A DNA stretch of 18,580 nt, taken from UHGV virus genome UHGV-0153540, one strand, 5' to 3'. Shown here piece after piece: positions 6,001 through 9,000 of this stretch (its first letter is position 1; each line of letters opens with the position of its first letter). Source of the DNA: a virus. A program made the position numbers.

Positions 6001-9000
6001 AGGCTACTGTGTTTAGTAATCAGATTTGTTCGTGACCGATATGCACGGGCAAAACGGCAGGAGGTTGTTAGCGCAACCTCTTGCCACCCGCTTTCACGAA
6101 GGTCATGTGTAGAAGGCCGCAGCGTAACTATCACTGATGAATTCAGGATAGCCAGTGGCTACGGCTCAGTTTGGGTTGTGCTGTTGCTGGGCGGCGATGA
6201 CGCCTGTACGCATTTGGTGATCCGGTTCTGCTTCCGGTATTCGCTTAATTCAGCACAACGGAAAGAGCACTGGCTAACCAGGCGCGCCGACTCTTCACGA
6301 TTATCGACTCAATGCTCTTACCTGTTGTGCAAATAAAAAAAGCCACCGTTGCAACTTAAGAGTCACTAACGGCAGCTTACATCTTTAAACGGTATGATAT
6401 TTCATTCTGGCTGCCTCAAAAGCCGCAGCGGCAAGTTCGGCAGTGTCATGGTATCCAAGGTTAATACACTTTCCAGACGCATTAATTCTTGCTCTCCATT
6501 TCCCGTACTTAGCATCCCAAGACACGCCACGGTATCCAGATTTATTATTCTTCTGAATTTTCCTGTTTTGCATATTTTCGGAATGAGTGACAAGACGAAG
6601 ATTTGATATCCGGTTATCTGTTCTTACCCTGTTGATGTGATCAATAAAACCATCGGGCATGGTGCCATAAACAATCAACCATGCCAGTCTGTGAGCAGGG
6701 CATGCTTTACCATTAATCATAATCATTAAATACCCATCAGAATTTATTGATGAGCATTTCTTGAAAGCAAAACGAGAGTTCCATGTCAAAGTGGTCCTCT
6801 CTCTCCCCTGCCTCCATCTCCAGTGAAAGTCGCCTGATGATGGATTGTAATCAACAACAGAAAGCACCATTTCTGGCGTTAATTTTATTTCTTTCATCGC
6901 TTTACCTTAGGGATAGAGCCTGTTCGCGTAGATATGACAGCCAAGAGCGGAGCGATGTTTCCACCACCATATCTCAGGCCCATATCACTAAGACTCTTGT
7001 TTTGATTGCACGCGAATGCAAAAAAGCCCACAGGAGGTGGGCTTGTGATGGTTGCTGAATGCAAAAGCAGCAGCATATGTGAATATTATGGCTAAATGGC
7101 TAATTGCATGTCAAGACTTTTAACAGCAACATGCTTAACTTTCTCAACACGTTTACGCATTTTGAAAGCATTTTGCATTGGTTGGTACAAAACAAATAAC
7201 GACGCTTTCAGGATGTCGTCAATTTCGTTTCTACAGGTTGCCATTGAAGGTTTTCTCCATCCCTCGCCACCACGTCCACACATCTTGCGTGGCTTTGCAG
7301 TCGCGTGATAGTAGGATGCAATTGCTCGCTTAGATGAACCATGAGCGTAGTAGCTGAGGAGGATGCCAAAGGCTTTCTTGTCAATGTACATGACGGAATC
7401 GACGACCTGAGAAATCAACATTCCATCATCATCATTACACATTGGCCTTGTCATAACTCTTCCCGGCTCTACGCTCTCCATGAACTTCGCTATTACGCTG
7501 CTCATGCGCTTTTCCAGACGACCTGAATAAACCCATGCGCCCCACAGTTCAAGCCAGCCATTCAGCCACTCATGCTGTTCTTTGGTGAGGTTTAGTTCTC
7601 TTATGCCCACGCGCCTTCTCCCTGTACCTGAATCAATGTGAGATTTCCGCAGAACACTGCGCCGGTATCGATATACATCTGGTTGGCAAATTTGAGCGGT
7701 TTCACTGCTGGCGTATGACCAAAGATGAACATGTCCGCGCCTTTGATTTCTTTCACGATCCCGTCTTGTGAGTTGCTGATTCGTTCGCGGTTCCAGATTA
7801 CCTGCTGATGATCAACTGGCTTTCCAAACTCGTATTCGTCACAAGGATAATCGGCGTGGCAGATGACATATTTTTTATCTTTGCTCACCAGTTCGATGAT
7901 TAACGGAAGTTCATCTGCTTTATGGGCAAGAGCTTTAGCCAGAATTTCTTTGTCGTAATCGAGATTAAAGAACCAGCCACCGCCATTAAGCAGCCAGTGA
8001 TTGACGTTTCCACGCTCTGATAAGCCATCAATCATCATGTGCTCATGGTTTCCACGTACAGCTCTGAACCAGGGGAATGTGATTAATTCCAGGCATTCAA
8101 CGTTCTCTGCACCACGATCAACCAAATCGCCAACCGAGATAAGCAGGTCTTTTTTGGTGTCGAATCCAATCGTATCCAGTTTGTTCATCAGGTTCGTGTA
8201 GCATCCGTGCAGGTCGCCAGCTACCCAAATATTTCGGTATTTGCTGCCATCAATTCTTTCGTAGATATTCATGCTGCCTCACTTCTGCTGTTTCGCAGAT
8301 TTTTAAGTTTCTGCTGATACTCCGCCTTGATGGCCCTGCACTCTTCGACAGTCCAGCGATGGCGGTTATGGTTTAATTCGATTTCGTCTACTGCTTCCTG
8401 CCCGATGCGATTAATCAGTTCGACGCGATACGGAACGAGATTTCCGCTTTTGTGCTGGTTGCACACCACGCATTGCTTGTGAATATTGCGTTCATCAAAT
8501 CGGAGTTGAGGTGCCGCAGCAGTTGTCCGGTAATGTCCGGCATCCCACTGAGCAGACGTGAGCGTTCCGCACGAGATACATGGTAAGTCGCGGTCTCTTT
8601 CTCTGATGAAGGCGTTTACGGCTTGTTGGGCTTGTTTAATCCAGTAACTGCGGGGCTTTAAGGCGAGTTTTCGAATCTTAAGTTTATCTTTCTGTTTCTG
8701 CTCCTCTCGTCGTCGTTTCTTCTCTGCTGCTTTTTCCGCTTTTTCGCGTTCTTTACTTCGTCGTTCGAGTGCTATCTTGGTTCCACACTCTGGAGAGCAC
8801 CACCACTGATTAGCGAATGCAGGATGAAACCATTCCCGACATTTATCGTTTTTACATCGTCTTCGCGCTGGTTTAGCCATCGTCTTCTTCCTCGTGCATC
8901 GAGCTATTCGGATCGCTCATCAGTTCTGCACAGCAGTGCTCACACACGTGAACTTCCAGCACATGCAGCTTCTGACCGCAGTTAGCGCACGTTAAAGCTC

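What the first reader, a model, noticed from the sequence alone, without database searches (positions are those of the whole stretch)
7020..7114. Near-consensus promoter overlapping the Q stop codon, followed within about 60 nt by an intrinsic terminator
TTGACA, an 18-nt spacer and CATAAT straddle the Q stop codon on the minus strand, and a strong hairpin plus U6 terminator follows about 45-60 nt downstream. This looks like a PR' with a short terminated leader that would be the substrate for Q antitermination. The HNH gene and lysis genes lie beyond this terminator.
Basis: seen in the sequence. Interest (0 to 1): 0.4.

Follow-up and report, generated by a model that had tools for sequence, protein, structure and literature searches.

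The report
Phage late promoter with terminated leader
This is the ordinary late-gene switch of a lambda-like E. coli prophage, a constantly active promoter whose roughly 60-base transcript stops at a terminator unless the phage Q protein (a phage 21 relative) modifies RNA polymerase; the one unusual feature is a nuclease gene wedged into it with its own spare leader and terminator.

Summary
On the minus strand, TTGACA (7114-7109), an 18-nt spacer and CATAAT (7090-7085) overlap the end of a Q gene. That Q is identical to crystallised phage 21 Q over residues 1-94. The spacer holds a perfect tandem repeat, TTAGCCAT x2, at the position of the Q21 binding element (C:G at -21 and -13). A -10-like hexamer, TATGCT, lies at +2 to +7, where phage 21 has its sigma-dependent pause element. 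An 8-bp GC-rich hairpin plus T6 follows at +35 to +61. Across 224 related promoters the +2 to +7 hexamer is kept in 221, while -6 to -1 varies freely. The same promoter is annotated as pR' in phages Sf6 and HK75, and the binding-element subtype is described in the phage L genome paper, so the kind is known. What I add is this. Homology to those phages breaks right after the -10. A 704-bp block (start region, pause element, leader, terminator, HNH endonuclease gene) sits there, followed by a complete second, phage-21-type leader and terminator (6380-6335). This tandem-leader cassette has fixed junctions in 34 viral contigs and occurs in 39 of 5,426 complete E. coli genomes. No transcription experiment exists for this subtype.

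The parts
7092..7610 (-). Q antiterminator gene (172 aa, GTG start). It is a Q21-family protein of the L/Sf6 subtype, and its last 10 codons run through the -35 and the Q-binding element.
   Evidence: Pfam PF06530, PHROG 943 and PDB Q21 at E = 3e-92. Residues 1-94 are identical to Q21. The C-terminal part diverges, including H95R and R128N.
7109..7114 (-). PR' -35 hexamer TTGACA (positions -36 to -31)
   Evidence: It is identical in phage 21, SfI, Sf6, HK75 and yong1.
7098..7103 (-). Putative Q-binding element, upstream subsite TTAGCC (-25 to -20, C at -21)
   Evidence: It is part of the tandem 8-bp repeat at 7103-7088. Its position matches Q21 QBE subsite 1 (PMC6606751) and the phage L paper's putative QBE.
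7090..7095 (-). Putative Q-binding element, downstream subsite TTAGCC (-17 to -12, C at -13). It contains the Q stop codon TAG (7094-7092).
   Evidence: This subsite was required by the search pattern, so its invariance could not be assessed. The upstream subsite varies between TTAGCC and TTATCC.
7085..7090 (-). PR' -10 hexamer CATAAT (-12 to -7)
   Evidence: Homology with Sf6, HK75 and ST64T ends exactly at its 3' end.
7078..7078 (-). Inferred transcription start (+1, A)
   Evidence: Inferred by register with phage 21. The AJ237660 record starts its 'aRNA' at the A just 5' of TAAGCT, and this agrees with the -21/-13 numbering in PMC6606751. It has not been mapped experimentally here.
7072..7077 (-). 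-10-like sigma-dependent pause element TATGCT (+2 to +7)
   Evidence: It has the same position as TAAGCT in phage 21. A TA(A/T)G(C/G/A)T hexamer is kept at +2 to +7 in 221 of 224 related promoters, while -6 to -1 varies.
7053..7075 (-). Small predicted 5' hairpin of the leader (+4 to +26). Its function is unknown.
   Evidence: The outer stem is conserved. The inner stem is not kept in the divergent variant L074.
7018..7044 (-). First late terminator, tR'(B): an 8-bp stem (5 GC pairs), a 5-nt loop and T6 (+35 to +61). The predicted terminated RNA is about 60 nt.
   Evidence: The stem is invariant apart from one G-C to G-U change, while at least five loop sequences occur among variants. HK629 annotates it as a rho-independent terminator.
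6385..6897 (-). HNH endonuclease gene (HNH_3 + AP2 domains, 170 aa). It has no promoter of its own and lies between the two terminators.
   Evidence: Pfam and PHROG 99. No promoter-like site of at least 8/12 lies upstream.
6335..6380 (-). Second, phage-21/Sf6-type leader, complete from its +1 G. It comprises TAAGCT at 6379-6374, a long hairpin at 6376-6342 and T7 at 6341-6335, giving a second late terminator tR'(A).
   Evidence: 98% identity to the leader of phage Oslo. The sequence is shown. The fold has a centroid energy of -20.2 kcal/mol, z = -3.44. It is present at a fixed offset in all 34 HNH-bearing loci with enough sequence.
4816..5928 (-). Late lysis genes downstream of both terminators: holin (5928-5725), lysozyme (5753-5250) and Rz (5265-4816)
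   Evidence: Pfam PF16080, PF00959 and PF03245

Best explanation
This is the late-gene control module (PR'-qut-tR') of a lambdoid, P22-like E. coli prophage. It is of the phage 21 Q family, in the L/Sf6 specificity subtype. The proposed mechanism has five steps. (1) Host sigma-70 RNA polymerase starts constitutively at PR', with +1 near A7078. (2) Sigma region 2 re-binds the -10-like TATGCT at +2 to +7 and pauses the polymerase after roughly 14-18 nt. (3) Two Q protomers bound to the tandem TTAGCC repeats at -25 to -12 load onto the paused complex. (4) Without Q, transcription ends at the hairpin plus U6 at +35 to +61 and releases a roughly 60-nt RNA. (5) With Q, polymerase reads through this terminator, the HNH gene and a second 21-type terminator (6376-6335) into the lysis and morphogenesis genes. 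What is shown here: the sequence elements, their register with phage 21, Q homology, conservation of the pause hexamer, terminator thermodynamics, and the absence of other promoters. What is inferred by homology with phage 21: the start site, pausing, Q binding to TTAGCC, termination efficiency and read-through. The stretch from -6 through the HNH gene (7084-6381, 704 bp) behaves as an inserted block. It supplies a replacement start region, pause element, leader and terminator, so Q loading is preserved and the nuclease stays silent in lysogens.
For: Q is homologous to Q21 at E = 3e-92, and residues 1-94 (roughly the half outside the DNA-reading helices) are identical. A tandem 8-bp repeat lies between the -35 and -10, with C at -21 and -13, as in the mutationally validated Q21 binding element. 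Phage 21 and SfI have TGAGCA-AA-TGAGCA with exactly the same 13-nt distance to TAAGCT as the window's TTAGCC-AT-TTAGCC has to TATGCT. The phage 21 record places the RNA start at the A before TAAGCT. The +2 to +7 hexamer is conserved in 221 of 224 promoters, against a highly variable -6 to -1. Q residues 95 and 128 track the repeat sequence: R/N with TTAGCC in 93 of 93 loci, and R128 with TGAGCA in 84 of 84. This matches the phage L paper's proposal. Sf6, HK75 and HK629 carry the corresponding depositor annotations. No other promoter lies before the late genes. The second leader and terminator are shown. The cassette has fixed junctions in 34 loci and lies behind both binding-element types.
Against: There is no transcript mapping, pausing assay or Q-dependence experiment for this subtype or this leader, so everything functional rests on homology to phage 21. 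Two of the published base-contacting Q21 residues differ (H95R, R128N), and the repeat differs at 2 of 6 positions, so binding of this Q to TTAGCC is plausible but untested. The promoter has a non-optimal 18-nt spacer. The terminator stem shows essentially no covariation because it hardly varies, so its support is thermodynamic and comparative only. The HK629 GenBank record places its 'putative pR'' downstream of the terminator instead.
Confidence: 0.9

Rival explanations
1. The short terminated PR' transcript is itself a functional, Hfq-binding regulatory small RNA in lysogens, like StxS of Shiga-toxin phages. On this view the antitermination leader role is only half of its biology.
For: PR'-tR' transcripts of Stx phages are processed into an Hfq-dependent sRNA, and the authors propose that antiterminated phage promoters are a general source of sRNAs (PMC7547250). 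The predicted roughly 60-nt RNA has a minimal sRNA-like layout: a 5' hairpin, an unpaired AACCAUCACA stretch, and a terminator hairpin with U6.
Against: No Rfam family matches at the gathering threshold or with a convincing E-value. No target or Hfq data exist. The unpaired region differs completely in the yong1 variant (GUUCUAAUCU), which argues against a conserved seed. This reading would add to the leader function rather than replace it.
Confidence: 0.12
2. The late promoter lies downstream of the hairpin, just before the HNH gene, as the HK629 GenBank record annotates. On this view the hairpin merely terminates the early-right operon after Q.
For: HK629 (JQ182735) annotates a 'putative late promoter pR'' hexamer about 30 nt upstream of the HNH start, and it annotates the hairpin only as a terminator.
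Against: The annotated hexamer reads TCTACG. No promoter-like site with even 8 of 12 matches exists between 7020 and 6880. That region has no Q-binding repeat or pause element. The Q-overlapping promoter is homologous to the experimentally defined PR'21 and is annotated as pR' in HK75 and Sf6.
Confidence: 0.03
3. The hexamers are a chance by-product of the Q coding sequence, and the hairpin is a generic terminator unrelated to late-gene control.
For: An 11/12 consensus match arises somewhere in about 20% of shuffled windows, and promoter-like sites overall are no more frequent than chance (26 observed against 24.9 expected).
Against: The pairing with a strong terminator occurred in 0 of 300 shuffles. 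In phage 21 the same promoter lies entirely outside the Q coding sequence, so coding constraint cannot explain its conservation. The conserved +2 to +7 hexamer and the fixed repeat-to-hexamer spacing across 224 loci also argue against chance.
Confidence: 0.02
4. The leader encodes a small protein or leader peptide. A 60-codon ORF starts at ATG +3 to +5, runs through the terminator and overlaps the HNH start in an ATGA motif, so control could be by translation-coupled attenuation.
For: ORF 7076-6894 exists and ends in an ATGA overlap with HNH. There are weak Rfam similarities to the Trp and Phe leaders (E = 1.5 and 6.5).
Against: There is no Pfam match and no Shine-Dalgarno sequence. The ORF is cut to 9, 24 or 26 codons in 6 of 42 related loci, including yong1. 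The Rfam hits are far below the gathering scores.
Confidence: 0.03

Closest known systems
Phage 21 PR'-qut-tR' with Q21 (Guo, Kainz and Roberts 1991, which I could not read; structures in PMC6606751 and bioRxiv 10.1101/651190)
   Same: The Q protein family is the same (residues 1-94 identical). The -35 hexamer is the same. Both have two direct-repeat binding subsites 8 bp apart with C:G at -21 and -13, the same 13-nt distance from the repeat to a -10-like hexamer at +2 to +7, GCTGC after that hexamer, and a short leader ending in an intrinsic terminator.
   Different: The repeat is TTAGCC rather than TGAGCA, matched by H95R and R128N in Q. The -10 is CATAAT with an 18-nt spacer, where phage 21 has AACACT with 17. 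Q extends 10 codons over the promoter. The pause hexamer is TATGCT rather than TAAGCT. The leader and terminator sequence is unrelated after +12, giving about 60 nt against about 50 nt.
Phage L, Sf6, HK75 and ST64T late promoters (L/Sf6 subtype; phage L paper PMC8022706; GenBank AF547987 and HM173637)
   Same: Q is 97-99% identical at the DNA level, and the -35, repeat and -10 are identical. The putative binding element AATTATCC/ATTTAGCC is already described for phage L.
   Different: Those phages continue after the -10 with the 21-type leader, often followed by tRNA-Asn and tRNA-Thr. The window instead has leader B, its own terminator and an HNH gene, and only then the 21-type leader. The window has no tRNAs.
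Phage HK629 (JQ182735) and Hafnia phage yong1 (NC_073022)
   Same: HK629 carries the identical leader, terminator and HNH block. yong1 has the same leader type and terminator stem.
   Different: HK629's record puts pR' elsewhere and does not annotate the second terminator. yong1 has the 21-type repeat (TGAACA/TGAGCA), no HNH gene and no second leader.
Lambda PR', 6S RNA and tR', and the StxS sRNA of Stx phages
   Same: The logic is the same: a constitutive late promoter, a sigma-dependent promoter-proximal pause, a binding element in the promoter, a short terminated RNA in lysogens, and Q-dependent read-through.
   Different: Lambda Q has no obvious sequence homology to Q21 and little structural similarity beyond a helix-turn-helix motif. 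The lambda leader is much longer (194 nt, from my own knowledge). No sRNA function is known for the 21-type or this leader.
Free-standing HNH homing endonuclease genes of phages (T4-type mobile endonuclease genes)
   Same: It is an HNH_3 + AP2 endonuclease ORF in an intergenic position, with a presence/absence polymorphism at fixed junctions among otherwise mosaic relatives.
   Different: No cleavage site or homing has been shown. The inserted block also carries regulatory parts (start region, pause element, leader, terminator), which I have not seen described for such elements.

Membership tests
Q21-family late antitermination module (Q + PR' + QBE + SDPE + tR') | An antiterminator protein homologous to phage 21 Q lies immediately upstream | tested here: met
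   phmmer against the PDB gives 6JNX and 6P18 at E = 3e-92 and 1e-91, full length and ungapped, with residues 1-94 identical. PHROG 943 scores 4e-93.
Q21-family late antitermination module (Q + PR' + QBE + SDPE + tR') | Two directly repeated binding subsites about 8 bp apart lie between the -35 and -10, with C:G at -21 and -13 | tested here: met
   The tandem TTAGCCAT x2 is at 7103-7088. Its register with phage 21 and SfI is shown.
Q21-family late antitermination module (Q + PR' + QBE + SDPE + tR') | The same DNA specificity as Q21 itself (TGAGCA subsites and the Q21 base-contact residues) | tested here: not met
   The subsites are TTAGCC, and Q has H95R and R128N. Residue type and repeat type co-occur in at least 176 of 177 parsed loci. 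This is therefore a distinct specificity subtype, as proposed for phage L.
Q21-family late antitermination module (Q + PR' + QBE + SDPE + tR') | A -10-like sigma-dependent pause element at +2 to +7, at a fixed distance from the binding element | tested here: met
   TATGCT lies at 7077-7072, 13 nt after C-13, as in phage 21. The hexamer is conserved in 221 of 224 promoters.
Q21-family late antitermination module (Q + PR' + QBE + SDPE + tR') | An intrinsic terminator lies between the promoter and the late genes, with no other late promoter | tested here: met
   The hairpin plus T6 is at 7044-7018. A second terminator is at 6376-6335. The late genes are identified. No further minus-strand promoter-like site lies before the late genes.
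Q21-family late antitermination module (Q + PR' + QBE + SDPE + tR') | Sigma-dependent pausing, Q loading and Q-dependent read-through shown biochemically | not testable with these tools
   This needs in vitro transcription with and without Q, or transcript mapping in vivo.
PR'-derived Hfq-dependent sRNA (StxS-like) | Membership of a curated sRNA family or a conserved seed region | tested here: not met
   No Rfam match lies above the gathering score, and the best sub-threshold hit has E = 0.1 on the opposite strand. The unpaired stretch is not conserved in yong1.
PR'-derived Hfq-dependent sRNA (StxS-like) | A stable short RNA bound by Hfq, with trans targets | not testable with these tools
   This needs a Northern blot, Hfq RIP or CLASH data from a lysogen.
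Free-standing homing endonuclease cassette | An HNH-family endonuclease ORF with a DNA-binding domain | tested here: met
   HNH_3 at 3.8e-18 plus AP2 at 1.6e-08. PHROG 99 at 1.8e-72.
Free-standing homing endonuclease cassette | Presence/absence polymorphism with identical junctions in otherwise different genomic backgrounds | tested here: met
   All 34 HNH-bearing loci with enough sequence show the same offsets (HNH at about 181 nt and leader A at about 698 nt after the first pause element), behind both binding-element types. The gene is absent behind leader A in more than 125 loci. The HNH-less forms are described.
Free-standing homing endonuclease cassette | The endonuclease cleaves the empty allele and promotes its own copying | not testable with these tools
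   This needs cleavage assays and mixed-infection crosses.

The most novel reading that the evidence does not exclude
The 704-bp block 7084-6381 is a mobile HNH endonuclease cassette that occupies the start site of the late promoter. It survives there because it carries its own start region, sigma-dependent pause element, leader and terminator. This keeps Q loading intact, keeps the nuclease silent in lysogens, and leaves the displaced original 21-type leader and terminator as a second barrier before the lysis genes. The two non-homologous leaders would then also serve as homology arms that let the block move between phages with different Q specificities. Separately, the roughly 60-nt terminated RNA could be a lysogen-expressed sRNA.
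Probability: 0.3. Interest if true: 0.5.

Novelty: new member of a known kind. Interest (0 to 1): 0.28.

Why it matters
The module itself is textbook biology and adds little. Three modest points have value. First, it gives a natural test set for Q21-type specificity: two repeat types (TGAGCA and TTAGCC) pair with two residue pairs (H95/R128 and R95/N128), and both are found in front of the same leaders, so specificity could be tested by simple swaps. Second, the survey of 224 natural promoters shows the pause hexamer fixed at +2 to +7 while the start-site region varies freely, which is comparative support for the structural model of Q21 loading. Third, the tandem-leader HNH cassette shows how a selfish nuclease gene can sit inside an essential regulatory site without breaking it, and it corrects the pR' annotation in HK629-type records. 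It occurs in about 0.7% of complete E. coli genomes.

Tried and rejected
1. I assumed from memory that P22 gene 23 is 21-like. The phage L paper says P22's protein is lambda-type, so I dropped that comparison.
2. Rfam gave nothing for the leader at either the gathering or the permissive threshold.
3. A full-text search for the leader, terminator and repeat sequences found no papers.
4. Guo et al. 1991 (PMC207295) is not held. The phage 21 start site therefore comes from the GenBank record and from the numbering in PMC6606751.
5. The BTP1 transcriptomics paper gives no start-site statement for this promoter.
6. An exact 24-mer scan of the one-genome-per-species collection found nothing. I did not use the second scan.
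7. The covariation test on the terminator was uninformative because the stem barely varies.
8. The 60-codon ORF from +3 was rejected as coding.
9. HK629's downstream pR' was rejected.
10. My first shuffle script timed out, and I re-ran it in a faster form.
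Full report
OBSERVATION. On the minus strand the window reads TTGACA (7114-7109), an 18-nt spacer and CATAAT (7090-7085). This is an 11/12 consensus match and the best promoter-like site in the window. The ORF 7610-7092 ends with TAG at 7094-7092, inside the spacer and directly 5' of the -10. Downstream lies AAGCCCAC-CTCCT-GTGGGCTT (7044-7024) followed by T6 (7023-7018). The 64-nt leader folds at -21.5 kcal/mol, z = -2.96. In 300 dinucleotide shuffles of the window, a promoter match of at least 11/12 occurs in about 20% and a terminator of this quality in about 1%. The two within 120 nt occurred in none.

CONTEXT. Pfam identifies, in order along the minus strand: NinG (8880-8269), a NinI-like phosphatase (8272-7601), Q (PF06530), an HNH_3 + AP2 endonuclease (6897-6385), holin, lysozyme, Rz, a KilA-N protein and a gp3-type small terminase. 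There are no tRNAs. The only Rfam hit is the lambda cIII thermoregulator at the far end of the window. The window is a mosaic lambdoid, P22-like E. coli prophage or phage with no close full-length match.

WHICH Q. The protein matches the crystallised phage 21 Q (6JNX, 6P18) at E = 3e-92, full length and without gaps. Residues 1-94 are identical. The C-terminal part, which carries the DNA-reading helices, diverges. Of the published QBE-contacting residues, S93, K94, R113, A124, T125 and R127 are kept, while H95 is R and R128 is N.

ANATOMY BY COMPARISON WITH PHAGE 21. Shi et al. (PMC6606751) describe the Q21 binding element as two direct repeats of TGAGCA between the -35 and -10. Its essential C:G pairs are at -21 and -13, and the paused bubble spans +3 to +15. 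I infer from the bubble position that the -10-like pause element occupies +2 to +7. Yin et al. report two 8-bp subsites, and loading on a template carrying only -40 to -1 of PR'21 plus a pause element at the native position. Phage 21 and SfI read TTGACA-TCAT-TGAGCA-AA-TGAGCA-ACACT-ATTCGC-A-TAAGCT. The phage 21 GenBank record starts its 50-nt 'aRNA' at the A before TAAGCT. The window reads TTGACA-TGCAA-TTAGCC-AT-TTAGCC-ATAAT-ATTCAC-A-TATGCT. The perfect tandem 8-mer TTAGCCAT x2 (7103-7088) was found independently by the repeat finder. The distance from the second subsite's C to the -10-like hexamer is 13 nt in both phages. Hence +1 = A7078, C-13 = 7091, C-21 = 7099, and the pause element TATGCT = 7077-7072. 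The terminator stem spans +35 to +55 and the U-run +56 to +61, giving a terminated RNA of about 60 nt. The start site, pause and Q binding are inferred from this register and have not been measured.

ALREADY PUBLISHED PARTS. Sf6 (AF547987) annotates the identical promoter as 'nearly identical to phage 21 late promoter', with a qut site and tR'. HK75 annotates pR' and Tr' at the same place. The phage L genome paper (PMC8022706) describes exactly this Q subtype. It is 80% identical to Q21 and divergent after residue 94, with contact residues changed. The paper proposes the tandem AATTATCC/ATTTAGCC as its binding element. HK629 (JQ182735) has the window's leader 100% identical and annotates the hairpin as a rho-independent terminator. 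The kind, and most of this member, are therefore known.

COMPARATIVE TEST OF THE PAUSE ELEMENT. I collected 224 promoters carrying either repeat type from IMG/VR and from named phages. At +2 to +7 the hexamer is TAAGCT (165), TATGCT (49), TAAGGT (6) or TAAGAT (1). In 3 further loci a TAAGAT- or TAAGGT-type hexamer is shifted by one base. Positions -6 to -1 take at least 20 different sequences. That pattern is what a functional sigma-dependent pause element at a fixed distance from the binding element predicts. Q residues track the repeat: R95/N128 with TTAGCC or TTATCC in 93 of 93 parsed loci, R128 with TGAGCA in 84 of 84, and H95 in 83 of 84.

Homology with Sf6, HK75, ST64T and similar phages stops exactly at the 3' end of CATAAT. 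Those phages continue with the 21-type leader, which I call leader A: (G)TAAGCTGCCGTTAGTGACTCTTAAGTTGCAACGGTGGC-T7. The window instead has leader B, shared with HK629 and with Hafnia phage yong1, where it follows a 21-type repeat. Directly after the HNH stop codon (6387-6385) the window then carries a complete leader A from its +1 G (6380) through its terminator. TAAGCT is at 6379-6374, a long hairpin at 6376-6342 and T7 at 6341-6335. It folds with a centroid energy of -20.2 kcal/mol and z = -3.44. The simple scan missed it because of its long loop. The layout is therefore Q | PR' with TTAGCC repeats | [-6 to +1, TATGCT, leader B, tR'(B), HNH] | leader A with tR'(A) | spacer | holin. The bracketed 704 bp (7084-6381) replace only the 6 nt at -6 to -1 of an Sf6/HK75-like promoter.

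IS THIS A UNIT. Among 43 IMG/VR contigs with leader B, every one that has the HNH gene and enough downstream sequence has leader A about 698 nt after the first pause element (697 in one locus). That is 34 loci, with HNH 94.7-100% identical, behind both repeat types. One further locus, cut about 350 nt after the pause element, shows only the first 61 HNH residues. The gene is never found directly behind leader A in more than 125 leader-A loci. The HNH-less leader-B genomes are of two kinds. In yong1-type phages, homology to the window runs about 20 nt past the terminator. In L009 and L024, the leader-B terminator is joined to the sequence that normally follows tR'(A), through the 9-nt GGCTTTTTT shared by both terminators. 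That is the product expected from a deletion between the two terminators. The complete cassette is present in 39 of 5,426 complete E. coli genomes. No promoter-like site of even 8/12 lies between tR'(B) and the HNH start, so HNH should be expressed only by read-through, that is, as a late gene. Whether the block moves by endonuclease-driven homing or only by ordinary recombination between flanking homologies cannot be decided here.

TERMINATOR SUPPORT. Among leader-B variants the stem is invariant apart from one G-C to G-U change. At least five loop sequences occur (CTCCT, TCCAT, CTCCC, TCATC, CGCCT), and the sequence after the T-run changes with the mosaic partner. RNAalifold gives a covariation term near zero. 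The structure is therefore supported by thermodynamics and by stem-versus-loop conservation, not by compensatory changes.

RIVALS. Four alternatives were considered.
(a) An sRNA role for the roughly 60-nt RNA, by analogy with StxS, is not excluded. However, it has no family match and its unpaired stretch is not conserved in yong1.
(b) HK629's pR' hexamer downstream of the terminator reads TCTACG and has no promoter support.
(c) Chance is excluded by homology and by the shuffle test.
(d) A 60-codon ORF starting at +3 and ending in an ATGA overlap with HNH has no family match. It is truncated to 9-26 codons in 6 of 42 loci.

VERDICT. It is a Q21-family late promoter, qut site and terminator of the already described L/Sf6 specificity subtype, so the kind is known. 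The window's leader and the tandem-leader HNH cassette appear not to have been described, but they are variations on ordinary lambdoid mosaicism. Interest is low to moderate.

Noticed in passing
window 6335-6380 (-): A second, complete phage-21-type late leader and terminator sits directly after the HNH stop codon. The consensus terminator scan missed it because of its 17-nt loop region, and HK629's record does not annotate it.
   Followed up: yes
L001 (HK629, JQ182735) 2190-2195, which corresponds to window ~6932-6927: The GenBank 'putative late promoter pR'' hexamer reads TCTACG and has no promoter-like context. The real PR' homologue overlaps the end of Q and is not annotated in that record.
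   Followed up: yes
window 7057-7066 and 7014-7023: A 10-nt exact direct repeat, TTTTGCATTC on the minus strand, occurs once inside the leader (+13 to +22) and once straddling the end of the terminator T-run. By eye, in yong1 it appears to extend to about 17 nt with one indel (GCTTTTGCATTCAGCGT against GCTTTTTGCATTTAGCGT). This may be a trace of an internal duplication that created leader B.
   Followed up: partly
L004 (phage 21, AJ237660) 900-916 compared with L005 (SfI): The 1999 phage 21 record reads TTGAGCAAGTAGCAAC where SfI and most 21-type loci read TTGAGCAAATGAGCAAC. The old record appears to have a sequence discrepancy inside the second Q-binding subsite.
   Followed up: no
L038 (~650-1160 nt after the pause element) and L074 (~295 nt after): Two other, only 33-41% identical HNH endonuclease genes sit just downstream of the late terminator in phages with divergent leader-B variants. 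The tR'-to-holin gap therefore seems to be a recurrent landing site for HNH genes.
   Followed up: partly
L014 (IMGVR_UViG_2537562173_000011): Leader B is identical up to window position 7036 and then continues with unrelated sequence, so the terminator's 3' arm and T-run are missing. This could be a rearranged or decayed prophage, or a phage with an unterminated late promoter.
   Followed up: no
window 6880-7017 (-): The spacer between the first terminator and HNH is predicted to be structured (-37 kcal/mol, z = -2.1). The bases just before the HNH start codon pair with the sequence right after the terminator. The spacer also holds a GATATGG direct repeat (6986-6980 and 6973-6967). This may control HNH translation.
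   Followed up: partly
window 18408-18466 (+): An Rfam Lambda_thermo (cIII thermoregulator) match at 88.5 bits, E = 9e-21. The leftward early operon therefore runs on the plus strand at this end of the window.
   Followed up: no
window 14445-14417 (-) and 16649-16677 (+): TTGACT-17-GATAAT and TTGACA-17-GATATT (10/12 each) face outward from the likely immunity region. They resemble lambda PR and PL.
   Followed up: no
window 10083-10110 (both strands): A perfect 10-bp, GC-rich, two-way hairpin flanked by T-runs on both strands, that is, a bidirectional terminator-like site.
   Followed up: no
window 5982-6134 (-): A 50-aa ORF between the second terminator and the holin gene matches PHROG 22751 (unknown function, E = 2.6e-29). 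It is probably a real small late gene.
   Followed up: no
window 6174-6330 compared with L052 (Oslo) 750-902: Relatives carry tRNA-Asn and tRNA-Thr right after the 21-type terminator. The window has an HK75-like spacer there instead and no tRNAs.
   Followed up: partly
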